Below are positions 8,218-58,974 of a stretch of DNA of 64,000 bases, piece by piece. Source of the DNA: Gammaproteobacteria bacterium (GTDB lineage Bacteria > Pseudomonadota > Gammaproteobacteria > Poriferisulfidales > GCA-002705445); assembly GCA_045561235.1 (NCBI GenBank), contig JBJKYB010000002.1:18962-82961 (forward strand), written 5' to 3'. Each line of letters opens with the position of its first letter. Positions within the stretch are counted from its first letter, which is position 1. The notes under the pieces were generated by a model. That model was not told where the DNA came from. It did not search any database and worked only from the letters and a program-made list of their open reading frames with translations. Made by a program: the position numbers and the translations under genes.

Positions 8218-9630
8218 ATGAAAGATCATTTAATATTTTTAACTGGAAAGCTAGCGAAGATATCACTTGAGAAAGTTCTATCAGATATTAGCTCCAAAAA
8301 TAAATTCACTTATGAAGTTATGGATATAGGTGTTAATGTTGCTGCTTTGGCAACAATAAATATTATTATTAAAAAAATAAATTTATCAGATGTCACAAAA
8401 GCAACAAAAATTATTATCCCGGGTAGATGCAGAGGTGAAATAAAAGATCTAGAAGCTCATTTTAAGAAAAAATTCATTAGAGGTCCAGAAGAACTAAAAG
8501 ACATTCCAAGCTTTTTAGGTTTACAAGGAAAAGATCTTGATCTAAGTAAATATGATACAAAAATAATTGGAGAAATTACCGAGGCTCCAAATATGTCTAT
8601 TGATGAGATTATTATTCAGGCAAATATTTATAAAGCTGATGGCGCAGATATTATCGATATTGGGTGTTTACCAAGTACAAAGTTTCCACATTTGACCGAA
8701 ACAGTTCAGGAATTAAAAAAACAAAAATTTATGGTTAGTATAGACTCTCTTGATGAAAAAAATTTAATCACAGGAGCTAAAGCTGGTGCAGATTTTTTAC
8801 TAAGCCTTCAAGAAAAATCTATCTGGATAATGGATGAAGTAAATTCTTTACCTGTGATTATTCCAGACTTTCCAAAAGAAGAAAAAAGATTTTACAAGTT
8901 AATTGAAAAATTATTAAAAAATGATAAAGAATTTATTGCTGATTCAATCCTAGAGCCAATAAATTTTGGTTTTACTGATTCCATAGTAAGGTATCATAGA
9001 TTTAGAAAAGAATTTCCGAATGTAGAAATAATGATGGGTATTGGAAATTTAACTGAGCTAACACATGCAGATACAGCTGGAATGAATGCTCTCCTTTTTG
9101 GTATTGCTTCAGAGCTGGAAATTAATTATGCATTATGCACACAGGTAAGTGAACATTGTAATAGGGCCATAATAGAAGGAAATTTTGCTAGAAGAATTAT
9201 GCGTTCCACGAAAACTTATAGTATGCCTCCAAAGGATATTTCTAATAAACTGCTTAGCCTACATGAAAGAAAGCCATTTCCATATTCAACTGAAGAACTT
9301 AAAGAAATGTGGAGTAATGTAAAAGATAAAAATTATAGGATTTATGTAAATCAGGATGGTATACATGTTTTTAATAACAAAAATTTCTATACAGAAAAGG
9401 ATGCTGCAGAGTTTTATCAATATCTTGATATAAAAAATGATGACGGACATGCATATTACCTAGGTATGGAATTAGCAAGAGCTGAAATAGCATTTCAGCT
9501 TGGCAAAAGATACGATCAAGACGAAATACTAAAATGGGGCTGTTCTGTAGAAATATCAGATGATGATATAATGAAATTTAAAACTGCAGGCCACACTATG
9601 AGAAAATTAAAAAAAGAAAAAATGGATTAA
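8218..9630 (+). CDS. dihydropteroate-synthase-like pterin-binding protein, probably tetrahydromethanopterin biosynthesis (MJ0301-type)
   Basis: 470 aa. The central region carries the pterin-binding/DHPS signature (GADIIDIG..PST...) flanked by extra N- and C-terminal domains, as in archaeal/methylotroph H4MPT-linked DHPS-like proteins. It is adjacent to an MfnB-like gene. Confidence 0.55.
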   Translation: MKDHLIFLTGKLAKISLEKVLSDISSKNKFTYEVMDIGVNVAALATINIIIKKINLSDVTKATKIIIPGRCRGEIKDLEAHFKKKFIRGPEELKDIPSFLGLQGKDLDLSKYDTKIIGEITEAPNMSIDEIIIQANIYKADGADIIDIGCLPSTKFPHLTETVQELKKQKFMVSIDSLDEKNLITGAKAGADFLLSLQEKSIWIMDEVNSLPVIIPDFPKEEKRFYKLIEKLLKNDKEFIADSILEPINFGFTDSIVRYHRFRKEFPNVEIMMGIGNLTELTHADTAGMNALLFGIASELEINYALCTQVSEHCNRAIIEGNFARRIMRSTKTYSMPPKDISNKLLSLHERKPFPYSTEELKEMWSNVKDKNYRIYVNQDGIHVFNNKNFYTEKDAAEFYQYLDIKNDDGHAYYLGMELARAEIAFQLGKRYDQDEILKWGCSVEISDDDIMKFKTAGHTMRKLKKEKMD

Positions 9631-9633
9631 ATC

Positions 9634-10203
9634 ATGACCTATGTCAGAGAGACTATAGTTACCACTAAAAATATTGATAACTCTATAAAAGTATCACCAC
9701 TTGGAATTTATATTGAAAATAGTATATTGAAAATAAAACCTTTCAAACCATCAATTTCTCTTGAAAATATCTTAAGAAATAAATCAGGTGTGATAAACTA
9801 TATAGATGATGTAAGAATATTTGCATCATGTATTACAAAAAAAAGTATTAATATTGACTTTGAAAAAGTTAACTTTATTGATTGCTCAAGAATTAATGGT
9901 GCTATATCTCATACAGAATTTGTAGTCGAACATATTGAAGATGATGATAAAAGGCCAACTATAACATGCAAACCTGTTAATGAAGAGGTTCATAAAATAT
10001 TTTATGGGCTAAATAGAGCAAAATCAGCAGTTTTAGAGCTTTGTATTCTCGCATCTAGATTAGGCATAATTGAGGATAAAAAAATTCAAGATGAAATTGA
10101 ATATTTAAAGATCGCAATAGACAAAACAGCTGGTAAAAATGAGCTCGAAGCTTGGACTTGGTTAAATAATTATATAAATACATACAGAGAAAAAATAAAA
10201 TAA
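9634..10203 (+). CDS. hypothetical protein, possibly DUF447-like small protein associated with H4MPT/MFR cofactor gene clusters
   Basis: 189 aa, starting 4 bp after the DHPS-like gene and sharing an ATGA-type junction with the MfnB-like gene. I recognise no strong motif; the assignment is by context and size only. Confidence 0.3.
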   Translation: MTYVRETIVTTKNIDNSIKVSPLGIYIENSILKIKPFKPSISLENILRNKSGVINYIDDVRIFASCITKKSINIDFEKVNFIDCSRINGAISHTEFVVEHIEDDDKRPTITCKPVNEEVHKIFYGLNRAKSAVLELCILASRLGIIEDKKIQDEIEYLKIAIDKTAGKNELEAWTWLNNYINTYREKIK

Positions 10204-10895
10204 TGTTAAAAATACTTGCTAGTATTCAAAATATATCAGAAGCGAAAATTTTAATAAATTCAGATATTGATATTATAGATCTTAAGGATCCATCAAAAGG
10301 CGCTTTGGGTAAATTAAATATTAATGATATTATTAATATAATAAATTTTATTGATAAAAAAAAACTTACAAGTTCTACTATTGGTGATTTACCAAATGAC
10401 AAGAAATTAATTTCTAAAAGTGTAGATGAGTTAAGTATTCTTAATATTGATTTTATTAAAATTGGAGTCTATGAAAGAAGTTATATTAATACAATAGCTG
10501 AAGTTAATTCATGTAAGAAACTTATAGCAGTTTTTTTTGCAGATCTATTCTTGCCTAAAGAAAAAGATTTATTATTCTTAAAAGAATCTGGCTTTTCTGG
10601 TGTAATGATAGATACTTCTAATAAGAAATTAGGAAATCTCTTCGATCATGCGTCTTTCTCTGAAATAAATAGTTTCATATCAAATGCAAAAAAACTTAAT
10701 TTATTGACTGGAATTGCAGGCTCAATTAACGAATCGCATATAAATCAAATTTCAAAAATTAATCCAAACTATATGGGTTTTAGAGGAGCTCTTTGTGAAA
10801 ATAAATTAATTAGAAATTCAACTATATCTGCCAAGAATGTTAAAAATATTATTCATCAAGTTAAAATTTCAAGAGAAATTTCTATGAGCGCTTGA
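10203..10895 (+). CDS. mfnB: MfnB-like (5-formylfuran-3-yl)methyl phosphate synthase family protein (methanofuran/methylofuran biosynthesis)
   Basis: 230 aa. The N-terminus MLKILASIQNISEAKILINSDIDIIDLKDPSKGALGK matches the MJ1099/MfnB family signature (...ADIIDVKNP.EGSLGA). The size also fits. Confidence 0.6.
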   Translation: MLKILASIQNISEAKILINSDIDIIDLKDPSKGALGKLNINDIINIINFIDKKKLTSSTIGDLPNDKKLISKSVDELSILNIDFIKIGVYERSYINTIAEVNSCKKLIAVFFADLFLPKEKDLLFLKESGFSGVMIDTSNKKLGNLFDHASFSEINSFISNAKKLNLLTGIAGSINESHINQISKINPNYMGFRGALCENKLIRNSTISAKNVKNIIHQVKISREISMSA

Positions 10896-50007: not shown

Positions 50008-50406
50008 ATGAGCGATAATATGTTTACTAATGCTTCAAAATATTTCGATGTAGTTGAGAAAATAATACTGGTTATATTGTTATTTGCGACACTTACAGCA
50101 ATAGGTCAGGAAATCTCAAAAGTTATAGCTCTAGGCAAAGTAAATCTTGCTGACATTCTATTATTGTTTATTTTTCTTGAAGTCATTGGGATGATTAAAG
50201 AATATTACGTAACAAATAGAATAGCAATTTCACATCCAATCTTTATTGCAATTACAGCTTTAGCACGATTAATTATTTTACAACGAAAAGATTTTGATCC
50301 AGTAATCTTAATATATGAATCAGGTGCTATTTTAATACTTGCTTTAGCAATACTCGCTTTAAGGGCTAGAAAAAACGCTTTCTTTAGACCAGATAGACCA
50401 GATTAA
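50008..50406 (+). CDS. psiE: PsiE-family inner-membrane protein (phosphate-starvation-inducible protein E-like)
   Basis: 132 aa, 4 TM. Colinear similarity to E. coli PsiE (ADVLF../ADILLLF..; [34 protein letters not shown] vs HPIFIAITALARLIILQRKDFDPVILIYESGAILIL). Confidence 0.7.
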   Translation: MSDNMFTNASKYFDVVEKIILVILLFATLTAIGQEISKVIALGKVNLADILLLFIFLEVIGMIKEYYVTNRIAISHPIFIAITALARLIILQRKDFDPVILIYESGAILILALAILALRARKNAFFRPDRPD

Positions 50407-50445
50407 AAAGATATTGATTTTTTTCTAAAAAAAATAATTTAAAAG

Positions 50446-50919
50446 TTAATAATATCTATTTGGTAATGAGGAGTGGTGCATAACGATTTTCAAATCACCA
50501 TTTGACAGTCTTTTATAGACCCAGCTTTTATCTACTTTTACAATATCGCCGTTCTTGTTACTTAAAGTCACCCATCCCATCCATATTGCAATATCATTTT
50601 CTATAAAGATATCTGAAGTTTTGGAGTCAAATTTACTCCACGAGTTAATTCCAAAGCCATTATCCATTGGATATTTTGAATTATTTCCAACGAAATAAGA
50701 TAGAGCTCCCTCCAAACTCGAGCGAAATGTTTGACTACTCCCACTCATGGTCGGTTTAAATAAAATTGGACCGAGTTCAAAAGCATATAATTCCTGTAAA
50801 ATTTTCTTTGCAATTATAGTAGCTTCTTCAATACCTTTTTCATCATAAGTCTTAGAAATTAAAATTAAGCCATCGCCCCAAGCATTGCGTGCTTTATTCA
50901 TATCTTTTTTATTAATCAT
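50446..50919 (-). CDS. hypothetical protein, possibly NTF2-like (SnoaL/DUF4440-type) fold
   Basis: 157 aa soluble protein ending in a ...HHSS-like motif; no catalytic motif recognised. It is co-oriented 96 bp downstream of fprA. Confidence 0.3.
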   Translation of the reverse strand: MINKKDMNKARNAWGDGLILISKTYDEKGIEEATIIAKKILQELYAFELGPILFKPTMSGSSQTFRSSLEGALSYFVGNNSKYPMDNGFGINSWSKFDSKTSDIFIENDIAIWMGWVTLSNKNGDIVKVDKSWVYKRLSNGDLKIVMHHSSLPNRYY

Positions 50920-51015
50920 TATGCAATTACTCTTCTATTATTTTGTAGCTTTGCTTAGCTATATTAAATCTGTGAGACATTTTCATAAAAAGTTTTTGCA
51001 TGTTTTGAGATATTT

Positions 51016-52437
51016 TTAAGTTAGTAGACCAAGCATTTCTTCAGTATATGTAAACTTCTCTCTTGGCTTACCTTTTGGTTTTCCATTTTCAACTTCATGT
51101 TTATCAATAACTTCCCATTCAATAAAATTGATGTATCTTACTTTTTTTGCATTAAGAATTTCGTGTATTTTTTTACTACCAAGCTTTTCTTTTTTATCAT
51201 CTAATTTTTCTAAATCTGTCATAAGTTCTTCAATAGTTTCATTCGCGCAGGCTTTGTTCGTTCCAATAATTCCACTTGGGCCCCTTTTGATCCATCCAGC
51301 TGTATAAAGTTGTGGAACGACAACCTTAGTTTCATGATCTTCGGTAACCCTTCCTTTTTCATTTGGAATAACGCCCCAAGCATCATGAAAAGGTACTCCT
51401 TCTAAAGCTACTCCTCTATAACCAATACTTCTAAATAAAACGCCCGCCTTTAGTTCTTCAAATTCGCCAGTACCTCTTGCCGACTGTTTAAATGGCTCGC
51501 CTGATAGAGCGTTCTTTTCAAAAACAACTGTTTCTAACTTTTTTTTACCTTTTAACTCTACAGGACTTCTCAAAAATTGTATGTGACATTTACGAGGTTT
51601 CACATATGGTTTTGTCCATGGAAAACTTCTTGCCTTATGAGGACTTTTAGGCTCAGCATAACTTGCAAACAATTCGTATATTTTTTTTGCTGATCTACCT
51701 TTTCTATCAGCTAGTTCCTCTTCACTAGATTTATTTAAAATTGCTTCATCAGGATCAACAAAAGTATCACATTCTTGTAACTCACCAAATTCTTTCAGTT
51801 CTTTCGAAGTCATTGCCCCTTGTGCGGGACCTCTTCTTCCAACAATAAATATATTCTTTACTTTACTTGTTTCTAAAACATCAAGCGCATGTTGTGAAAT
51901 GTCAGTATATTTTAATTCATCAACTGTCTTTGAAAGTATTCTGGCAACATCAGCAGCAACATTACCTTGACCAATAATTACAGCATTTTCATGAGATAGA
52001 TCGAATTCCCTATCTCTATATTCTGGATGTCCGTTATACCATGCAACAAATTCCGTAGCTGTATGACTTCCTTTTAAATCCTCACCAGGTATGCCAAGTT
52101 TTCTATCAGTTTCCGCGCCCATAGTTATAATGACAGCATGGTGAGTTTCTTTTAGAGCATCTACAGTTATATCTTTACCAACACTTACATTTCCAAAGTA
52201 ATTAAATTCTTCGGGTTCTGCCATTACTGCAAATTTCTCAATACTTTTTTTAATTAAAGCATGATCAGGTGCAACTCCGGTTCTCACTAGCCCATAGGGC
52301 GCGCATAACTTTTCAAGTAAATTGACTTCTACTTTTAATTCCGAATTAATTAAAGCATCTGCCGCATAAAATCCGCTTGGGCCAGCACCAACAATTGCAA
52401 CTTTCAAGGGATTATCTGAACTTCCTAATTTGCTCAT
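51016..52437 (-). CDS. fprA: FprA/adrenodoxin-reductase-type NADPH:ferredoxin oxidoreductase (glutamate synthase small-subunit-like FAD/NAD(P) fold)
   Basis: 473 aa. The N-terminal FAD dinucleotide motif VAIVGAGPSGFYAA and a second NADP Rossmann motif (VIIGQGNVAADVARIL) give the architecture of Mycobacterium FprA / adrenodoxin reductase. It starts 21 bp after fdxA. Confidence 0.8.
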   Translation of the reverse strand: MSKLGSSDNPLKVAIVGAGPSGFYAADALINSELKVEVNLLEKLCAPYGLVRTGVAPDHALIKKSIEKFAVMAEPEEFNYFGNVSVGKDITVDALKETHHAVIITMGAETDRKLGIPGEDLKGSHTATEFVAWYNGHPEYRDREFDLSHENAVIIGQGNVAADVARILSKTVDELKYTDISQHALDVLETSKVKNIFIVGRRGPAQGAMTSKELKEFGELQECDTFVDPDEAILNKSSEEELADRKGRSAKKIYELFASYAEPKSPHKARSFPWTKPYVKPRKCHIQFLRSPVELKGKKKLETVVFEKNALSGEPFKQSARGTGEFEELKAGVLFRSIGYRGVALEGVPFHDAWGVIPNEKGRVTEDHETKVVVPQLYTAGWIKRGPSGIIGTNKACANETIEELMTDLEKLDDKKEKLGSKKIHEILNAKKVRYINFIEWEVIDKHEVENGKPKGKPREKFTYTEEMLGLLT

Positions 52438-52458
52438 TTTTTCACTCTTTATAAAAAA

Positions 52459-52764
52459 TTATAAACCTAATGCTTCTCTTTTGTCTTCTGCACCTTCAAG
52501 AGGTTCAAGAGTTTCAGTAATGTTTGGAGTTTCTTGCGATCTTTCTTCATTTATATCTACCCAATGTTCTTGACCATCAGGAAGATCATCCTCTTCAAAG
52601 ATTGCTTCTACTGGACATTCCGGAACACACGCGCTGCAATCAATACATACATCTGGATTTATATATAACATTTCGTCATCAACGTGAAATGCTTCAACAG
52701 GACAAACCGAAACACAATCGGTAAATCTACATCCTCTACAATTATCTGTCACTACTGTTGTCAT
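52459..52764 (-). CDS. fdxA: 7Fe ferredoxin ([3Fe-4S][4Fe-4S], Azotobacter FdI type)
   Basis: 101 aa; MTTVVTDNCRGCRFTDCVSVCPVEAFH...CIDCSACVPECPVEAIF, near-colinear with A. vinelandii FdI. Confidence 0.93.
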   Translation of the reverse strand: MTTVVTDNCRGCRFTDCVSVCPVEAFHVDDEMLYINPDVCIDCSACVPECPVEAIFEEDDLPDGQEHWVDINEERSQETPNITETLEPLEGAEDKREALGL

Positions 52765-52802
52765 AAAATAAATACTCCTAAAAACTTTACTTAATTATAT
52801 AC

Positions 52803-53609
52803 CTACGCAGAATAAACTAAAAGTTCTCCGCGATTCATTTCAATAGCATCTCCACTCCACCTATGGAATGAACCATTGATAATTTTATCCTCAATATTAA
52901 TTTTTGTATTTTCTTTTAAATACTTAAAGAAAATTTTTAAATATGTTGGGTTATATAAACAATCATATGAAAAAGTTGGTAATATTTCTAAATTGTCTAT
53001 ACATATAATAGAACCCCTTTTCATTCCTGCTCCAGTTCTGATACCCATTTCACCAAATATTAAAATGGTACCTGATACCATATTAACGCCCGCAAAATCT
53101 CCACAATTTCCACCAACTACCATAGTAGCGCCTGCCATAGCATGACCTAATTCATTTTTGACATTACCCTCAATAATAATTTCTCCCCCGGAAACACCTT
53201 TTGACGCACCTCTATATGCACTTGCAACGCAATGTCCAGCGTTTCCAGAAATATGAATTCTTCCCCCTGACATTTCTGGTGCAATCCAATCACCAGCATT
53301 ACCATTTACGTTTATAGATCCACCAGACATTGCTGAGCCTAAATGGGCACCCACATCTCCTTCGATATGCATCTCCCCTTCAGACATATTTGCTCCCAAA
53401 TATTTTATTCGGTTCATGTCTCCTTCGACTTGCAATAAATCTAATTTACTCTTTGAGACAGAAAAGAAATCAGCTATATTCACTTCTCTATTACCATGAA
53501 AAATTTTAGTTTTTTCAATTTCTTTTGCCTTTAAATTATTAATAACTCCAGGAGTTATACTCTCAGCTTCTAAAGGAACATCTGGTTTTGTGTGTAATTT
53601 TAATTTCAT
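52803..53609 (-). CDS. fhcC: formylmethanofuran dehydrogenase subunit C-like protein (FwdC/FhcC; GltB C-terminal GXGXG beta-helix domain)
   Basis: 268 aa of repeated G.GNAG.....M.GG.I.I.G motifs, typical of FwdC and glutamate synthase alpha-subunit domain 4. Confidence 0.85.
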   Translation of the reverse strand: MKLKLHTKPDVPLEAESITPGVINNLKAKEIEKTKIFHGNREVNIADFFSVSKSKLDLLQVEGDMNRIKYLGANMSEGEMHIEGDVGAHLGSAMSGGSINVNGNAGDWIAPEMSGGRIHISGNAGHCVASAYRGASKGVSGGEIIIEGNVKNELGHAMAGATMVVGGNCGDFAGVNMVSGTILIFGEMGIRTGAGMKRGSIICIDNLEILPTFSYDCLYNPTYLKIFFKYLKENTKINIEDKIINGSFHRWSGDAIEMNRGELLVYSA

Positions 53610-53623
53610 CGTACTAGTTTGAT

Positions 53624-54538
53624 TTAATCTACTAAATCCTTTAAATAAAATTTATATTTACCAAGTTTTCCGCCAAAATTTCCAGCAGTTATTTGAATAA
53701 CTCCTTCTTTGGCTGCAGCATGCATTCCTACTTTCATAGCTTTTGCAACTGCATTCTCATCTGCACCGTCTACGACAATTTCGTAACAAGTATGAACGCT
53801 TTCAGGCACAGCCGAATCTTTAACTACTCCTTTTAAAGTAGGACAATAAATATGGTTTGTCGAGGCAACTAGATCTTTGTATTTTGACCCAACTTTACTA
53901 CCACTTCTAACTACTCCTTTAGGAAATGGCATTATAACATTTTCAACTCTCTTCATAACTTTTACAGCATCGTAACAAGCATCTAGACATTCTTTTACAT
54001 TATCACCAAGAATATAAAAATTTCCACCGCCAACAGATTCTCTTACACCAAAGTTTTCGTGTATTATAAATTCTCCGTCAAAAACTGGAATTCTCCAGTA
54101 TCTTTTATTTTGAATTTTTTTCCCTATTTGATGACCATCACCAAAGTATCTTAATGCTCCACCAACATTTACAGTGTCTTCTGAATCGTAACCACTAAAA
54201 CATGCCGTTGTTGGACATGTCATTACACATTGTCCTATTCTTTCAATTAATCTTTTACCAAGACTCGCTTTATCCATTGTAAAAACTAAAATACTATAAC
54301 CTGGTCTGCCATCAGGGGTTTCCTCGGGAGTAAGCTTCATATCGATACCTGCTTCGCATTTGCAACCTATTACAGAAGTTGCCATTCCAGTCATGGCTCT
54401 TGCAGCACCTTCAGCCCAATAATCATTTTCTGCAGTGATAATTACTTTTGCCGACCACATTGAAAAAGCTTCTGCATATGTATCAACAATTTCTGTATTA
54501 TTAATTTTCATAAATGCTGTTCTTTTTCCTTGTTTCAA
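53624..54538 (-). CDS. fhcD: formylmethanofuran--tetrahydromethanopterin N-formyltransferase (Ftr/FhcD)
   Basis: The N-terminus ...MKINNTEIVDTYAEAFSMWSAKVIITAENDYWAEGAARAMTGMATSVIGCKCEAGID is colinear with archaeal Ftr (MEINGVEIEDTFAEAF...). The likely true start is the Met at about 54511 (295 aa), which avoids a 38-bp overlap with fhcA. Confidence 0.85.
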   Translation of the reverse strand: MKQGKRTAFMKINNTEIVDTYAEAFSMWSAKVIITAENDYWAEGAARAMTGMATSVIGCKCEAGIDMKLTPEETPDGRPGYSILVFTMDKASLGKRLIERIGQCVMTCPTTACFSGYDSEDTVNVGGALRYFGDGHQIGKKIQNKRYWRIPVFDGEFIIHENFGVRESVGGGNFYILGDNVKECLDACYDAVKVMKRVENVIMPFPKGVVRSGSKVGSKYKDLVASTNHIYCPTLKGVVKDSAVPESVHTCYEIVVDGADENAVAKAMKVGMHAAAKEGVIQITAGNFGGKLGKYKFYLKDLVD

Positions 54539-56168
54539 TTACTTTACCTGTGCCATGTAAATATTCATCCTGAACTGCATAATTACTATAGGAAACAGAA
54601 TAAAAATCATCAAAGAAAGGTTTTATAACTTTTTCTATTTCTCTATCAAAATCAGGTGCCACTCGTAAAACTTTTTTGTCAGTATAGTCACTGACAAATT
54701 CATGATCAGCGATCAACAATTGCCCAGCCTTCATAACGTATCTTGGAGCATTAAACATTTCTTCTTTATCCTCAAGCATGTCATATATTGTTATGTCTGC
54801 GTCCGCACCAACACCTAGATGACCTTTATCTTTTAATCCTAAACACTTTGCAGGGCCTGCCCTTGTAATGATACAAATTTCATTTAATGTATATTCCCTT
54901 TTCAACTCTCCCAAAATCGTACTATTCATTGCTTTTTGATTAACACTTTTCATTGCTACTTTTCTAAATTCATAATCCATTAATAATTTAATTACCAATG
55001 GATAATTTGCAAAAGAACCGCCATTTGGATGATCGGTAGACAAAACTATTCTCCAAGGATCTTTTGATAACAAGAATATTTCTAAACCAATAGCCCATTG
55101 AAGTGCATGAGTGTAAATCATACCCTGGTAATCGAAAGGTAAAATTCCACAGCCACTCTCACATTCAGTATCAGCATTCACCCATTTTTCTTTTTTATAA
55201 CCTCTGAGTAAATATGTTAAAGGCGCGTCAGCAGTCATAAACATTGCTTTACCAAACATTACTTGCCCAACATCGCAGGTTATATTTTGGTGGTCGTTTA
55301 CATAATCAGTAATTTCTTTTGAGGCTGATTTTGGTGGCTTGCCAAGTTCACCCGCGTAACTATTGAATTGAATATGAGCAACATGCAGTCTTCTATCCCC
55401 AGCAGTCTTCATACTTTCTAAGGTTGTATCAAAGTTTCCACTATGACCAAGATTATTACAATGAATATGCGGAGGATGAGGTAATCCTAGCTCATGTACA
55501 GCATCAATAAATGCTTCGATCACTTTTCTTGGTGCAATATCTGTCGCCTTACTATCTTCGTCGATATCTTTTACATTCAGATTTTTGTGACCTTTCCAGG
55601 GTTCATCTCCTCCTGGATTTACTAATTTCACAGTGTACGCTTTTGTTGCATTTAACCACCATGCAACTGCCTCTTTGAACTCAGCAAAACGCCCCTCTGC
55701 AATTAAACTTTGTAAAAAAAGATTATTTCCAAGTAAAACATAAAAACCGTTGTCAATGATTGGCGTGTCGTACATTTCTTCCAGCGCATGCCTTGCAGTC
55801 AATGGCGGGACAGCTGCTTCCATTGCAGTTGTGTATCCTAAAGTTGCATATCTATATCCAGTTGCGAAAGTTGAAGGAACAATTCCTCCAGTACCAGATT
55901 GTGTGTATGGGGTTTTAAAGTGCGGATCTAATCTATGATCCTCGGGCATTAATTTTCTTGCTAGATTAACTTTTGGTCCAGTAATATGACAATGAATATC
56001 TACACCGCCAGGCATAACTGCCATTCCTTTTGCATCGATAACCTTTGCCGCTTTGGAAACCTTTGAGACAATTTTTCCATCCTTTACGAGGATGTCACAA
56101 ACTTTTCCTTCGATTTCATTTGTAGGATCAAAAACTATGCCGTTTATGATACGAAATTCATTACTCAT
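54501..56168 (-). CDS. fhcA: formylmethanofuran dehydrogenase subunit A-like metal-dependent amidohydrolase (FwdA/FhcA)
   Basis: 555 aa amidohydrolase-superfamily protein (GGVDIHCH metal-binding motif near the N-terminus) with FwdA length and operon context. Confidence 0.85.
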   Translation of the reverse strand: MSNEFRIINGIVFDPTNEIEGKVCDILVKDGKIVSKVSKAAKVIDAKGMAVMPGGVDIHCHITGPKVNLARKLMPEDHRLDPHFKTPYTQSGTGGIVPSTFATGYRYATLGYTTAMEAAVPPLTARHALEEMYDTPIIDNGFYVLLGNNLFLQSLIAEGRFAEFKEAVAWWLNATKAYTVKLVNPGGDEPWKGHKNLNVKDIDEDSKATDIAPRKVIEAFIDAVHELGLPHPPHIHCNNLGHSGNFDTTLESMKTAGDRRLHVAHIQFNSYAGELGKPPKSASKEITDYVNDHQNITCDVGQVMFGKAMFMTADAPLTYLLRGYKKEKWVNADTECESGCGILPFDYQGMIYTHALQWAIGLEIFLLSKDPWRIVLSTDHPNGGSFANYPLVIKLLMDYEFRKVAMKSVNQKAMNSTILGELKREYTLNEICIITRAGPAKCLGLKDKGHLGVGADADITIYDMLEDKEEMFNAPRYVMKAGQLLIADHEFVSDYTDKKVLRVAPDFDREIEKVIKPFFDDFYSVSYSNYAVQDEYLHGTGKVIETRKKNSIYEN

Positions 56169-56220
56169 AATTAATTCAAACCTTTTTTAATTTTTATATT
56201 TATTAATTAGCTCAATGTAC

Positions 56221-57591
56221 TTACATATATTTTTTAGTTGCATAAGGTCTATTTGCTTTTTTAGACAACTCATTAACTTTTTTTCTAAGTTTTGTTAGCA
56301 CCTCTAGATCACTAGGAAATGGTGAATCAAATGCAGGTCTTAAACTAATTGGAACATCATCCATTCTATAAACTGTTCCACCGGTGTTAATTCCATAAGT
56401 ACTGGTTTGAATTGAAATATGCGCAGCTTCACTTGTCGGTGTGTTTTTTGTATCTATTGATATTAATTTACATTTGTCACTTGTAATATGATCAATTGCA
56501 GGCTTTGGAAAATTCGCAACTGGATCACTTGCAATTATTAAAGCTGCATCAGCTTCTTTTCTTGTTAAAGTATCAACAGTTGTAAATTCACCAGGATTAA
56601 ACCTTGGGTGCCCTCTGCTAAAATTAACTCCAAACGGATACCCAGTTTGCCAAGAAACAACGTTATCGGCACCTGTTACGTTACCATGTCCTCTTGCAGG
56701 TTTTGCTACAAAATGCGTAAATTCATTTAGATCTGTTGCTAAGGCCATTAATGCTCCAGAGTTAAAGTGTCTTCCTCTAGTCATTGTTAATCCCATTCCA
56801 AAAAATATAACTCCATAAGTACAGTTTTTCATTTTATTAAAAAGATCTTCAGCAACTTCTTTTTCGATACCACAAATTTCTTTACAATTATCTGGAATAG
56901 GAACACCTTTACATGCAGCCCTGAGTATCCATAAAAACTCAAAATCTTTTCCAGGTTTTACTTGTAAAAATATATCAGCTACTCCTGCTGTTTTTGTATG
57001 TCTCACATCACAAATTACAACTGTACGATCATCTTTTCCATTTGGAGTAAACATACCTTCTGGTGTAACAGCATATCTTGCGAAATGTCTTGGGTGCGCT
57101 TCAGCTGGATTACCACCCCAATACATTACAAAGTCAGCTCTATTTTTTACTTCTCCTAAAGTCATGCTGGGTTCACCAACACCTTGGAAAGCCATGCCGG
57201 ATGGACCGTGACATACAGAAGTTGTTGTATCAATAGTTCCACCACAATCGTCCATGATTGGAGCACATTGTCTTTGAGCTTCACATATTGTGTCACTCAT
57301 ACCATATAATATTGGAAACTTTGCATCCATTAACACTTTAGCCGCTTCATCAATTGCATCATCTAAAGGAACTTCTTTTCCATCTATTCTTGCTATTGGC
57401 TTATCTTCTATAACATGATTTAAAAACCAAGCCTTTCCAAGTATGCAAGCATCTTTAGCTTTTGTGATAACTTTTTTGTCCATATCAACAGTCAAAGTAA
57501 TATCATCACAACAGCATCCACAAAAAGTACAAGTTGCGTTCTCTACAATTTTCTCATTTACAATTTTATTATCTTTACTTACTGCACTCAT
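56221..57591 (-). CDS. fhcB: formylmethanofuran dehydrogenase subunit B-like molybdopterin-oxidoreductase-fold protein (FwdB/FhcB)
   Basis: 456 aa. An N-terminal Cys cluster (CTFCGCCCDD...C) resembles the MopB [4Fe-4S] motif. The internal TTTSVCHGPSG resembles the Cys/SeCys active-site motif (VUHGPS of FDH-H). Confidence 0.8.
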   Translation of the reverse strand: MSAVSKDNKIVNEKIVENATCTFCGCCCDDITLTVDMDKKVITKAKDACILGKAWFLNHVIEDKPIARIDGKEVPLDDAIDEAAKVLMDAKFPILYGMSDTICEAQRQCAPIMDDCGGTIDTTTSVCHGPSGMAFQGVGEPSMTLGEVKNRADFVMYWGGNPAEAHPRHFARYAVTPEGMFTPNGKDDRTVVICDVRHTKTAGVADIFLQVKPGKDFEFLWILRAACKGVPIPDNCKEICGIEKEVAEDLFNKMKNCTYGVIFFGMGLTMTRGRHFNSGALMALATDLNEFTHFVAKPARGHGNVTGADNVVSWQTGYPFGVNFSRGHPRFNPGEFTTVDTLTRKEADAALIIASDPVANFPKPAIDHITSDKCKLISIDTKNTPTSEAAHISIQTSTYGINTGGTVYRMDDVPISLRPAFDSPFPSDLEVLTKLRKKVNELSKKANRPYATKKYM

Positions 57592-57620
57592 AATATCTCC
57601 TTGATTGTCTCCTTAACTCA

Positions 57621-58013
57621 TTAAGCAACTTCAGTTTTAGGCGGTAAAGCAGTTTTCTTTTTTACGCCTTTTTTGACAAACTCTATATCTATTGTCATTC
57701 CTTTTGAGGCCGGCATGCCCGATGCACATGTTTCACCATCAAACAAACAACTTGATGGCGGGCCATATGGAATGAATGCATAACCTACAGGAATTTTTCC
57801 TTCTCTTAGAACTTTTAGTTGAACTTCAGTTTCACCGATGTGGTTACTAATTTTGACTATGTCAGCTGTTTCTAGTCCTAGCTCAGCTGCATCTTCGAAA
57901 CTAATTTCAAGCGTAGTTGTGACTCTAATGTACTCTTCCTTAAGCTTACCCTTATTCAGCCCTACTCCTTGTTTGGCGGAGCGGCCTGGTATAAGTATTA
58001 GTTGTCCTTTCAT
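57621..58013 (-). CDS. formylmethanofuran dehydrogenase subunit D-like protein (molybdopterin dinucleotide-binding / MopB C-terminal beta-barrel domain)
   Basis: 130 aa; colinear with archaeal FwdD (G.......G....V.I......G...V...V.......F.P.GP........D..T...GMP.SKG......E). It is the first gene of the operon, 29 bp upstream of fhcB. Confidence 0.65.
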   Translation of the reverse strand: MKGQLILIPGRSAKQGVGLNKGKLKEEYIRVTTTLEISFEDAAELGLETADIVKISNHIGETEVQLKVLREGKIPVGYAFIPYGPPSSCLFDGETCASGMPASKGMTIDIEFVKKGVKKKTALPPKTEVA

Positions 58014-58155
58014 TGCATCATTAAGTTTTTCCTAAGCCTCTTTTAAATACTCAAATATTGTTTACTACCTATATTAACGTATGCTTATTAAGATAACCTA
58101 TTATGGGTAATAAAACAACTATTTTATATTACTATAGTAGTATTTAAGCAGTATT

Positions 58156-58231
58156 TGGAGCCGCCTGTCAGAATCGAACTGACTACCTGCTGATTACAAA
58201 ACAACTGCTCTACCAAATGAGCTAAGGCGGC
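58156..58231 (-). tRNA. tRNA-Thr (anticodon UGU)
   Basis: 76 nt hand-folded cloverleaf with perfect 7-bp acceptor stem (GCCGCCT/AGGCGGC), D-arm GCTC-ATTTGGTA-GAGC, anticodon loop UUUGUAA, T-arm GTCAG-TTCGATT-CTGAC, CCA encoded. Confidence 0.85.
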
Positions 58232-58236
58232 AATTT

Positions 58237-58974
58237 TTACGCTTCAAATACTAAAATTCCTTCAAAAAGAAGAGATTCTACATGTATTATTGGGTAGTTA
58301 CAATTATCCAAAACGCTTTTAGAATTTCCTCCAGTTACATAAATTTCTGGAGTGACACCCCTTCCTTTAATCATCTTATCCAAAGTATTATTTATTGAAT
58401 GATATGCAGAAATTGTAGAACCATTTTCAATGCTAGATCTTGTGTTAGATGAAAAAATTCCTTCAATTAATTCTTCATTTGAAAAATCAAAATCTAGCAT
58501 TTCAAAAAATACGCTATCAATGAGTTTTTTACTAGGGAGAATAATACCTCCTATATGATTTTTGTTGAAGTCCAAATAGTCAATTGTTGTTGCTGTTCCT
58601 GCATCAATAACAATAATATCTTTATTTGTTTTTACAGATGCTCCTACTAAGTTTAAAGCTCTATCTACTCCTAAATTATTTAAATTATTTTTATATGCTA
58701 AGGAAATATATTGATTACAATCTTCCGAATTAATAAATTTAATAATTTCATTAATATCACTGGGCAGCTCGTTCATAATAAGTTGTAAATCAGCTTCCTT
58801 AAGAACATTACAACAAACTATTTTCTCGCAATTAAATTTTTTAACAATGGTGGCTAAATTATTCAGCTCAGATATATTTTCATAATTATTTTTTTGAACC
58901 GAAATAATGTTATTTTCTTTAATAAGAGCTAATTTGTAATTAGTATGTCCAAAATCAATTGCGCAAAAATTCAT
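58237..58974 (-). CDS. coaX: type III pantothenate kinase (Bvg accessory factor family)
   Basis: 245 aa; N-terminal AIDFGHTNYKLAL and internal VIDAGTATTID motifs of CoaX; downstream of birA as in many beta-proteobacteria. Confidence 0.85.
   Translation of the reverse strand: MNFCAIDFGHTNYKLALIKENNIISVQKNNYENISELNNLATIVKKFNCEKIVCCNVLKEADLQLIMNELPSDINEIIKFINSEDCNQYISLAYKNNLNNLGVDRALNLVGASVKTNKDIIVIDAGTATTIDYLDFNKNHIGGIILPSKKLIDSVFFEMLDFDFSNEELIEGIFSSNTRSSIENGSTISAYHSINNTLDKMIKGRGVTPEIYVTGGNSKSVLDNCNYPIIHVESLLFEGILVFEA

What the first reader, a model, noticed from the sequence alone, without database searches (positions are those of the whole stretch)
57621..58013. Stand-alone FwdD-like gene leading the operon
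This 130-aa protein has the glycine/proline pattern of the FwdD / molybdopterin-dinucleotide-binding beta-barrel that caps the pterin cofactor in Fwd and FDH enzymes. Bacterial fhc clusters are normally described as four genes (fhcCDAB) without a D subunit. If a D subunit is present, the B subunit is likely a complete MopB enzyme split into two polypeptides as in archaea.
Basis: partly seen in the sequence, partly recalled or inferred. Interest (0 to 1): 0.6.

Follow-up and report, generated by a model that had tools for sequence, protein, structure and literature searches.

The report
Real FwdD subunit in gammaproteobacterial operon
The small gene is a genuine FwdD "cap" subunit, and it marks a seven-gene operon in uncultured marine and soil Gammaproteobacteria that looks like an intact, archaeal-type formylmethanofuran dehydrogenase wired to NADP+, not the hydrolase (Fhc) that textbooks assign to bacteria.

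Summary
ORF 57621-58013 (-) encodes a 130-aa stand-alone Molydop_binding barrel. Its best sequence and fold matches are archaeal FwdD/FmdD chains, and it evolves under strong purifying selection (dN/dS 0.03-0.05).

The adjacent B subunit keeps all four [4Fe-4S] cysteines and the catalytic Cys-His and Arg that M. extorquens FhcB has lost. It is 44% identical to M. wolfeii FwdB. The cluster is therefore Fwd-type, not Fhc-type.

D leads a seven-gene unit: D-B-A-Ftr-C, then a 7Fe ferredoxin and an FprA-type NADPH:ferredoxin reductase. This order is colinear in 56 of 59 species-level genomes of uncultured Gammaproteobacteria with enough sequence (GC 29-67%).

About 26 of these genomes carry a second, D-less set directly downstream. 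Its B subunit lacks the catalytic Cys and Arg, and in the one checked its A subunit is closest to M. extorquens FhcA. This is a natural control: D travels only with the intact B.

The most likely function is oxidation of formyl-MFR to CO2 with electrons passing through ferredoxin and FprA to NADP+. This step is inferred, not shown.

A 2016 review states that fwdD is absent from Proteobacteria, and I found no paper describing this system. I rate it a new variant of a known kind, of moderate to high interest.

The parts
57621..58013 (-). fwdD-like gene: a 130-aa stand-alone MopB domain IV (Molydop_binding barrel). Residues 114-130 form a Lys-rich tail specific to this clade.
56221..57591 (-). 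fwdB-like gene: 456 aa, MopB domains I-III with the N-terminal [4Fe-4S] motif (C21, C24, C28, C49), catalytic C127-H128 and R300.
   Evidence: TIGR03129 scores 490 bits against a cut-off of 328. 5t5i_B scores 375 bits, against 44.6 bits for FhcB 6s6y_B.
54501..56168 (-). fwdA-like amidohydrolase subunit (555 aa), the site that converts formyl-MFR.
   Evidence: TIGR03121 scores 685 bits. Archaeal FwdA chains score 462-468 bits, against 339 bits for FhcA 6s6y_A.
53624..54538 (-). ftr/fhcD: formylmethanofuran:H4MPT formyltransferase. The true start is probably the ATG at 54511.
   Evidence: Pfam FTR and FTR_C match, and TIGR03119 scores 412 bits. PDB 6s6y_D scores 296 bits and 1ftr 287 bits.
52803..53609 (-). 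fwdC/fhcC: beta-helix (GXGXG) scaffold subunit, 268 aa.
   Evidence: TIGR03122 scores 251 bits. PDB FwdC and FhcC chains match.
52459..52764 (-). 7Fe ([3Fe-4S][4Fe-4S]) ferredoxin of the Azotobacter FdI/FdxA type, 101 aa. It is the proposed electron acceptor of FwdB.
   Evidence: PDB A. vinelandii FdI matches at E=2e-29. Pfam Fer4 and DUF3470 match. Colinear in 56 of 59 genomes.
51016..52437 (-). FprA/adrenodoxin-reductase-type NADPH:ferredoxin oxidoreductase, 473 aa.
   Evidence: PDB 1lqt FprA scores 334 bits and 1cjc AdR 302 bits. Colinear in 56 of 59 genomes.
58156..58231 (-). tRNA-Thr(tgt) just upstream. It bounds the 142-nt leader and promoter region of the operon.
8218..10895 (+). Three cofactor-related genes elsewhere in the window: a DHPS-like protein (DUF6513 plus a pterin-binding domain), a DUF447 protein, and MfnB (4-HFC-P synthase, methanofuran biosynthesis).

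Best explanation
The 130-aa protein is the FwdD-type domain-IV cap of a catalytically intact bacterial formylmethanofuran dehydrogenase that uses molybdo- or tungsto-pterin. It would pair with the B subunit next door to enclose the bis-MGD cofactor, as FwdB and FwdD do in methanogens.

The operon (D-B-A-Ftr-C-Fdx-Fpr) would encode a formyltransferase/dehydrogenase unit working as follows:
- Ftr moves the formyl group from H4MPT to methanofuran.
- FwdA hydrolyses formyl-MFR.
- The formate produced is oxidised to CO2 at the Cys-ligated Mo/W centre of FwdBD.
- Electrons leave through the [4Fe-4S] cluster of FwdB to the co-encoded 7Fe ferredoxin, and then through the FprA-type flavoprotein to NADP+.

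This unit would do in one step what Fhc plus a separate formate dehydrogenase do in model methylotrophs.

What is shown: the identity of D, the retention of all diagnostic residues in B, the conservation of the seven-gene unit, and the contrast with the D-less paralogous set.

What is inferred: cofactor loading, the choice of metal, the direction of the reaction, and the ferredoxin/FprA/NADP+ route.
For: D is FwdD-like by sequence and by fold and is under strong purifying selection.

B keeps every feature that Hemmann et al. 2019 list as lost in FhcB: the N-terminal Fe-S cysteines, Cys118/His119/Arg288, and a D partner. All 82 D-linked B genes examined keep them; in four the contig ends before the Arg.

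D-linked B (B1) is 42-45% identical to M. wolfeii FwdB and 64-79% identical among eight compared representatives. The co-resident D-less B (B2) has Cys replaced by M/S/T/A/K/L and Arg replaced by G/A/S. B2 is only 22-28% identical to B1 and diverges much faster in the same pairs of genomes: L026 vs L060 gives B1 79% and B2 38%.

The window's A subunit is closer to archaeal FwdA (468 bits) than to FhcA (339 bits). The one D-less A2 checked (L084) is closest to FhcA (435 bits).

The order D-B-A-Ftr-C-Fdx-Fpr is colinear in 56 of 59 species genomes with enough sequence, across GC 29-67%. Starting instead from B1 proteins, D lies directly upstream in 3 of 3 cases.

In larger genomes the unit sits back to back with fae-mch-mtdB and H4MPT biosynthesis genes. 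The window itself carries mfnB and H4MPT-related genes.

Fpr belongs to the FprA/AdR family and Fdx is a 7Fe FdI-type ferredoxin. From my own knowledge, M. tuberculosis FprA reduces 7Fe ferredoxins.

Thermodynamics: the CO2/formyl-MFR couple is about -530 mV (PMC11656701) and NADP+ is -320 mV, so oxidation coupled to NADP+ runs downhill. An archaeal precedent exists for coupling formyl-MFR oxidation to a higher-potential acceptor, the F420-reducing Fmd 8RJA.
Against: There is no biochemical, expression or proteomic evidence.

I could not check whether these genomes encode Moco/bis-MGD biosynthesis or Mo/W uptake.

The score against NCBIfam's FwdD model is well below its curated cut-off (55.7 vs 175 bits), so D is not a close orthologue of the methanogen proteins.

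Pfam's Molybdopterin model hits B only weakly (20 bits, below the gathering score of 24). No Pfam family is on record for the other B homologues either.

The archaeal electron-transfer subunits FwdF and FwdG are absent.

Two genomes (L067, L083) lack Fpr after Fdx.

Synteny of Fdx and Fpr shows linkage, not direct electron transfer.
Confidence: 0.7

Rival explanations
1. The cluster is a functional Fhc-type hydrolase. B and D would be inert scaffolds retained from an ancestor, and formate would be the product, as in Methylorubrum extorquens.
For: The gene order B-A-Ftr-C is that of fhcBADC, and Ftr is embedded in the cluster as in Fhc. Ftr and C score about equally against the Fhc and archaeal chains.
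Against: All catalytic and Fe-S residues of B are invariant in 82 genes spanning D identities of 43-97%. B1 evolves much more slowly than the true scaffold-like B2 in the same genomes. D has dN/dS of 0.03-0.05. Many genomes already carry a separate Fhc-type set right next to this one, which would make a second hydrolase redundant. A dedicated ferredoxin and reductase would have no role.
Confidence: 0.08
2. The complex runs in the methanogen direction. It would reduce and fix CO2 to formyl-MFR for C1 assimilation, with NADPH feeding electrons through FprA and ferredoxin.
For: Fwd enzymes are reversible. FprA/AdR enzymes normally pass electrons from NADPH to ferredoxin. Several hosts appear to be sulfur-oxidising autotrophs or mixotrophs (DsrC lies nearby in L001-L003). 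A carbonic-anhydrase-like gene follows Fpr in the window and in three relatives.
Against: NADPH (-320 mV) cannot drive a couple at about -530 mV without bifurcation or energy input, and no bifurcating module (Hdr, Nfn or Etf) is in the cluster. The cluster is adjacent to fae, mtdB and mch, the formaldehyde-oxidation module.
Confidence: 0.07
3. FwdBD is active, but the ferredoxin and FprA are not its dedicated partners. Reduced ferredoxin would be the end product and would feed other low-potential reactions, or the two genes would simply be housekeeping neighbours.
For: FdxA-type 7Fe ferredoxins are common housekeeping proteins. The Fdx scores 117 bits on the FdxA_Protbact model, just under its cut-off of 135. 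Two genomes lack Fpr after Fdx.
Against: Colinearity in 56 of 59 genomes across GC 29-67%, with intergenic gaps of 38 and 21 nt in the window, is far more than expected for unrelated neighbours. In genomes with both sets, Fdx-Fpr sits between the Fwd-type and Fhc-type sets and always follows the Fwd-type C gene.
Confidence: 0.15

Closest known systems
Archaeal tungsten/molybdenum formylmethanofuran dehydrogenase FwdABCD(FG)/FmdABCD (e.g. M. wolfeii 5T5I; Ca. Ethanoperedens F420-reducing Fmd 8RJA)
   Same: It has a stand-alone D subunit acting as MopB domain IV. B has the N-terminal [4Fe-4S] motif and the Cys-His...Arg active-site residues. The A amidohydrolase and the C beta-helix are present. 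B is 44% identical to M. wolfeii FwdB, and A scores 462-468 bits against archaeal FwdA. Like 8RJA, it may couple formyl-MFR oxidation to an acceptor of higher potential than ferredoxin.
   Different: The host is bacterial (Gammaproteobacteria, probably aerobic or microaerobic). There is no FwdF/FwdG polyferredoxin; a 7Fe FdxA-type ferredoxin and an FprA-type NADPH reductase take their place. The formyltransferase gene is embedded between A and C. D scores below NCBIfam's FwdD cut-off. The ligand is Cys, with no selenocysteine, in all 82 genes.
Formyltransferase/hydrolase complex FhcABCD of Methylorubrum extorquens (6S6Y)
   Same: The gene order B-A-Ftr(FhcD)-C is shared, and so is the pathway context (fae, mtdB, mch, MFR/H4MPT biosynthesis). 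The Ftr and C subunits are about as similar to FhcD and FhcC as to the archaeal proteins.
   Different: FhcB lacks the Fe-S domain, Cys118/His119/Arg288 and any D partner. Here all of these are present. Window B scores only 44.6 bits against FhcB. A true Fhc-like, D-less set exists as a separate paralogue in about 26 of the same genomes.
fwdD-containing H4MPT/MFR gene sets of NC10 (Methylomirabilis), Firmicutes and Synergistetes
   Same: These are bacteria reported to retain an fwdD homologue (Chistoserdova 2016).
   Different: I did not examine them here. That review explicitly excludes Proteobacteria. Whether those sets carry the Fdx-FprA pair is unknown.
M. tuberculosis FprA with a 7Fe ferredoxin; adrenodoxin reductase with adrenodoxin
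   Same: The last two genes of the operon are homologues of this redox pair.
   Different: The known pairs deliver NADPH electrons to P450s and similar acceptors. Here the proposed flow is the reverse, from a low-potential dehydrogenase to NADP+.

Membership tests
FwdD/FmdD (stand-alone domain-IV subunit of formylmethanofuran dehydrogenase) | A small protein consisting only of the Molydop_binding (MopB domain IV) barrel | tested here: met
   PF01568 scores 40.6 bits against a gathering score of 26.8 and covers residues 5-90 of 130. The AF2 model is a beta-barrel.
FwdD/FmdD (stand-alone domain-IV subunit of formylmethanofuran dehydrogenase) | The closest solved relatives by sequence and by fold are FwdD/FmdD chains | tested here: met
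   The top five phmmer hits and the top seven Foldseek hits, at TM about 0.70, are all FwdD/FmdD.
FwdD/FmdD (stand-alone domain-IV subunit of formylmethanofuran dehydrogenase) | Encoded next to an FwdB that keeps the Fe-S cysteines and the catalytic Cys/Sec, His and Arg, together with FwdA and FwdC | tested here: met
   D lies upstream of B1 in 82 of 83 D-selected loci (L051 is disrupted by IS elements) and in all 3 B-selected loci.
FwdD/FmdD (stand-alone domain-IV subunit of formylmethanofuran dehydrogenase) | Reaches the curated cut-off of NCBIfam NF042908 (tungsten-dependent FwdD, an exception-type model) | tested here: not met
   55.7 bits against a cut-off of 175. The model is narrow and built on methanogen proteins, so D is a divergent bacterial branch rather than a close orthologue.
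FwdD/FmdD (stand-alone domain-IV subunit of formylmethanofuran dehydrogenase) | Physically caps the bis-MGD cofactor bound to FwdB | not testable with these tools
   This needs a structure, a multimer model, or cofactor analysis.
Fhc (formyltransferase/hydrolase complex) | The B subunit lacks the catalytic Cys118/His119/Arg288 | tested here: not met
   Window B has C127, H128 and R300 at these positions.
Fhc (formyltransferase/hydrolase complex) | The B subunit lacks the N-terminal [4Fe-4S] domain | tested here: not met
   C21, C24, C28 and C49 align with the FwdB cluster cysteines.
Fhc (formyltransferase/hydrolase complex) | No FwdD-like fourth domain | tested here: not met
   D is present and conserved.
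Fhc (formyltransferase/hydrolase complex) | The formyltransferase (FhcD) is encoded within the cluster, in the order B-A-D-C | tested here: met
Archaeal Fwd/Fmd holo-complex | FwdF/FwdG-type poly- or di-ferredoxin subunits are encoded with the enzyme | tested here: not met
   The only Fe-S protein in the unit is a 101-aa 7Fe FdI-type ferredoxin. None of the annotated loci has a polyferredoxin.
FprA/adrenodoxin-reductase family (last gene of the operon) | Full-length similarity to FprA/AdR | tested here: met
   1lqt scores 334 bits over residues 10-469, and 1cjc scores 302 bits.

The most novel reading that the evidence does not exclude
A widespread, so far undescribed enzyme system in uncultured Gammaproteobacteria, including abundant low-GC marine SUP05/ARCTIC96BD-19-like plankton and USC-gamma-type soil bacteria. 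It would be an NADP+-reducing formyltransferase/formylmethanofuran dehydrogenase that oxidises formyl-H4MPT directly to CO2 without free formate. In evolutionary terms it would represent the missing intermediate between archaeal Fwd and bacterial Fhc: Ftr is already recruited, but the dehydrogenase module is not yet lost. In streamlined genomes it may be the only terminal step of C1 oxidation.
Probability: 0.45. Interest if true: 0.8.

Novelty: new variant of a known kind. Interest (0 to 1): 0.62.

Why it matters
The accepted picture is that bacteria using H4MPT and methanofuran end the pathway with Fhc, a hydrolase whose B subunit is a dead MopB scaffold without a D cap, and that fwdD is absent from Proteobacteria.

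This window and at least 147 species-level genomes show a second bacterial solution that keeps the whole dehydrogenase module and adds its own ferredoxin and NADPH reductase. If it is active, three things follow:
- The carbon and electron bookkeeping of C1 oxidation changes in abundant marine and soil bacteria. There would be no formate pool, NADPH would be made directly, and the pathway would depend on Mo or W.
- It would provide a formylmethanofuran dehydrogenase from hosts that are probably aerobic or microaerobic, of interest for CO2-capture enzymology.
- It gives a natural pair of paralogues, intact and degenerate, side by side in one genome, for studying how Fhc evolved from Fwd.

It also exposes an annotation problem: pipelines give both kinds of B the same name, 'formylmethanofuran dehydrogenase subunit B'.

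Tried and rejected
- The promoter and terminator scan of 50300-58400 found no more sites than in shuffled sequence (31 against 30.5 expected), so it is uninformative in this AT-rich DNA.
- The Rfam scan of the whole window found only five tRNAs. There is no Moco or other riboswitch in the leader of D.
- NCBIfam's FwdD model matched but scored below its cut-off. I treat this as divergence, not as evidence against the fold.
- L051 looked like a D gene without an operon. The downstream region turned out to be filled with two IS copies, so this is a disrupted cluster and not a free-standing D.
- The first residue map of B2 from pairwise tblastn was out of register around the active site. I redid it with a MAFFT alignment that included M. 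wolfeii FwdB.
- Searching homologues of B2 to tie it to cultured methylotrophs returned only uncultured Gammaproteobacteria among the best 120 hits. The link of the D-less set to Fhc therefore rests on PDB scores: its A subunit hits FhcA best, while B2 itself still scores higher on FwdB (127 bits) than on FhcB (87 bits), though that is nearer to FhcB than B1's 44.6 bits.
- Six literature searches for fwdD or formylmethanofuran dehydrogenase together with methanotrophs, SUP05, Thioglobus or Gammaproteobacteria found no description of this system.
- I considered that D might be a shadow or chance ORF. I rejected this on the dN/dS values and the invariant motifs.

Full report
**1. Observation**

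The minus-strand ORF 57621..58013 is real: ATG start, 130 aa. It lies 29 nt upstream of the next gene and 142 nt downstream of a tRNA-Thr gene.
- It passes Pfam's Molydop_binding model (PF01568, 40.6 bits, gathering score 26.8).
- It matches NCBIfam's FwdD model over almost its full length (E=5e-15), but below that narrow model's curated cut-off (55.7 vs 175 bits).
- Its five best PDB sequence matches are all FwdD/FmdD chains: 2ki8, 8rja_D, 9sfi_S, 5t5i_D and 7bkb_J.
- An AlphaFold2 model built on 17 homologues (pLDDT 75.6) finds the same FwdD/FmdD chains as its top seven Foldseek hits (TM about 0.70). Domain IV of formate dehydrogenases and nitrate reductases follows.
- dN/dS against six relatives is 0.026-0.051.
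- A 17-sequence alignment has 33 invariant columns. By my count on the alignment, 21 of them are identical in A. fulgidus FwdD.

**2. The operon**

D is followed on the same strand, with gaps of -38 to +52 nt, by six genes:
- B, 456 aa, TIGR03129 at 490 bits.
- A, 555 aa, TIGR03121 at 685 bits.
- Ftr/FhcD, 304 aa.
- C, 268 aa.
- A 101-aa ferredoxin with the cysteine pattern of Azotobacter 7Fe ferredoxin I. It matches that protein at E=2e-29.
- A 473-aa flavoprotein that matches M. tuberculosis FprA (334 bits) and adrenodoxin reductase (302 bits) over its full length.

**3. B is an intact FwdB, not an FhcB**

Hemmann et al. 2019 (PMC6926001) list what M. extorquens FhcB has lost relative to FwdB:
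- the catalytic Cys118 (Ser62 in FhcB), His119 and Arg288;
- the N-terminal [4Fe-4S] domain;
- the FwdD fourth domain.

Window B scores 375 bits against M. wolfeii FwdB but only 44.6 bits against FhcB. It has C21/C24/C28/C49, C127-H128 ('SVCHGPS') and R300 ('PARGH') at the corresponding positions. Window A is also closer to archaeal FwdA (462-468 bits) than to FhcA (339 bits). Ftr and C do not discriminate. The cluster therefore fails the features that define Fhc. It shares with Fhc only the embedded formyltransferase and the B-A-Ftr-C order.

**4. Relatives**

The D protein has 112 homologues in the protein collection. Nearly all are 109-143 aa; a few are truncated entries. Where a source gives a name it is 'formylmethanofuran dehydrogenase subunit D', 'molybdopterin dinucleotide-binding protein' or 'hypothetical protein'.

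A scan of one genome per species found 147 genomes. The best 80 are all metagenome-assembled or single-cell genomes, and nearly all are labelled Gammaproteobacteria. They include marine SAGs and MAGs labelled 'Thiothrix sp.' (the window's nearest relatives, 83-97% identical), USCg_Taylor, Ca. Oxydemutatoraceae and Thiotrichaceae UBA973/UBA4486.

By tblastn, the order D-B-A-Ftr-C-Fdx-Fpr is colinear in 56 of the 59 genomes with at least 6.9 kb downstream of D, across GC contents of 29-67%. The three exceptions are one cluster broken by IS elements (L051) and two that lack Fpr (L067, L083).

All 82 D-linked B genes keep the seven diagnostic residues. Four are cut by a contig end before the Arg. 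Starting instead from three B proteins, D lies directly upstream in all three, so the association is not an artefact of searching with D.

**5. A natural control**

In about 26 of the loci a second set (B2-A2-Ftr2...) starts 150-300 nt after Fpr and has no D gene.

In a MAFFT alignment with M. wolfeii FwdB, the B1 sequences are invariant at 'DTTTSVCHGPSG' and 'RGHGNVT'. The B2 sequences have M/S/T/A/K/L in place of the Cys and G/A/S in place of the Arg.

B2 is 22-28% identical to B1 and diverges much faster between the same genomes:
- L026 vs L060: B1 79%, B2 38%.
- L060 vs L069: B1 91%, B2 64%.

In the one D-less set checked (L084), A2 is closest to M. extorquens FhcA (435 bits). Its B2 scores 87 bits against FhcB, against 44.6 bits for B1, although B2 still scores higher on FwdB (127 bits).

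So these genomes carry an Fwd-lineage set (with D, Fdx and Fpr) and an Fhc-lineage set (without them) side by side. D travels only with the intact B.

**6. Pathway context**

In the larger genomes the unit is divergently adjacent to fae, mch, mtdB (Mpt_N) and H4MPT-biosynthesis ATP-grasp, CitG and GHMP-kinase genes.

In the window's low-GC clade (window GC 31.5%) the unit sits instead between coaX/birA/tRNA-Thr and the tuf/ribosomal-protein region. The window does, however, carry MfnB (methanofuran biosynthesis), a DHPS-like pterin protein and a DUF447 protein at 8218-10895.

**7. Mechanism**

Shown: D is an FwdD-type barrel under selection. B has every sequence hallmark of an active FwdB. The seven genes form a conserved unit.

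Inferred:
- D caps a bis-MGD cofactor on B.
- Ftr, A and BD convert formyl-H4MPT through formyl-MFR and tunnelled formate to CO2.
- Electrons pass from the FwdB cluster to the 7Fe ferredoxin, then to FprA and NADP+.

This direction is thermodynamically downhill: about -530 mV for CO2/formyl-MFR (PMC11656701) against -320 mV for NADP+. It resembles the F420-reducing Fmd of Ca. Ethanoperedens (8RJA). The FprA/7Fe-ferredoxin pair is a known redox couple (my own knowledge). The metal (Mo or W) is undetermined.

Confidence:
- D is a functional cap of an active dehydrogenase: about 0.8-0.85.
- The NADP+ route: about 0.55.
- The combined statement: 0.7.

**8. Rivals**

- An Fhc-like hydrolase with inert B and D. 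The invariant catalytic residues, the slow evolution of B1, the strong constraint on D and the co-resident true Fhc-like set argue against it.
- CO2 reduction driven by NADPH. This is thermodynamically implausible without bifurcation, and the cluster adjoins the formaldehyde-oxidation genes.
- An active FwdBD with Fdx and Fpr as unrelated neighbours. Colinearity in 56 of 59 genomes argues against it.

**9. Comparison with what is known, and novelty**

Wells et al. 2023 (PMC10100899) counted 149 bacterial FwdB homologues and inferred transfer from Archaea, but did not describe their gene context or function.

Six literature searches found no description of a proteobacterial fwdD or of the Fdx-FprA association. 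Annotation pipelines do already label the gene 'subunit D', so the gene's identity is not new. The system-level reading is new. I rate it a new variant of a known kind.

**10. Limits**

There are no expression or biochemical data. I could not inspect the genomes for Moco biosynthesis, Mo/W uptake, formate dehydrogenase, or an Fhc set elsewhere in the window's own genome. The taxonomic labels are those of the public records.

Noticed in passing
window 50446-50919 (-): A 157-aa ORF lies 96 nt after Fpr. It matches NCBIfam 'metal-independent carbonic anhydrase' (NF047901, E=3.5e-50, 170 bits, below the cut-off of 350) and has no Pfam hit. The same gene follows Fpr in L004, L009 and L011. Other close relatives (L001-L003) have a SulP-family transporter at that place. 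A link to the CO2 or bicarbonate produced by the operon is possible but untested.
   Followed up: partly
window 57621-57671 (-), residues 114-130 of D: In the low-GC marine clade, D ends in a Lys-rich tail of about 17 residues (KKGVKKKTALPPKTEVA) with pLDDT below 50 over residues 120-129. The other gammaproteobacterial D proteins stop at about residue 113.
   Followed up: no
window 54501-54538 (-): The listed Ftr ORF starts at a TTG and overlaps the A gene by 38 nt. The Pfam FTR domain begins at residue 10 and relatives are called at 295-296 aa, so the ATG at 54511 is the more likely start. That still leaves an overlap of about 11 nt, which suggests translational coupling.
   Followed up: partly
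window 8218-10895 (+): Three consecutive genes for methanofuran and H4MPT cofactor metabolism: a DHPS-like protein with DUF6513 and a pterin-binding domain, a DUF447 protein, and MfnB (4-HFC-P synthase). They show that this streamlined genome invests in these archaeal-type cofactors.
   Followed up: partly
L084 17147-20336, L086 17272-20336, L087 15884-19350, L088 15842-19350 and about 22 other loci: A second, D-less B-A-Ftr set lies directly downstream of Fpr. Its B has lost the catalytic Cys and Arg but, unlike M. extorquens FhcB, still has the four N-terminal Fe-S cysteines. This may be an intermediate stage of FhcB degeneration.
   Followed up: partly
L051 8500-14200: The D gene is intact next to mtdB and the GHMP kinase gene. 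The rest of the cluster is displaced by two copies of an IS element and another transposase.
   Followed up: yes
L080 1169-2416 (minus strand of the locus): A third B-like ORF lies upstream of the cluster on the opposite strand. It is 31% identical to B2, and its fourth Fe-S Cys and catalytic residues are replaced.
   Followed up: no
window ~20700-49900 (-): Judging by ORF sizes and synteny with L089 and L003, a large block follows the operon on the same strand: ribosomal-protein, rpoBC, tuf, secE and nusG genes plus four tRNAs. In this clade the C1 operon is embedded among core housekeeping genes rather than in an H4MPT island.
   Followed up: partly
(protein collection): Public annotation gives the same name, 'formylmethanofuran dehydrogenase subunit B', to both the intact (B1) and the degenerate (B2) proteins. 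Pathway reconstructions from MAGs therefore cannot currently tell a dehydrogenase from a hydrolase.
   Followed up: partly
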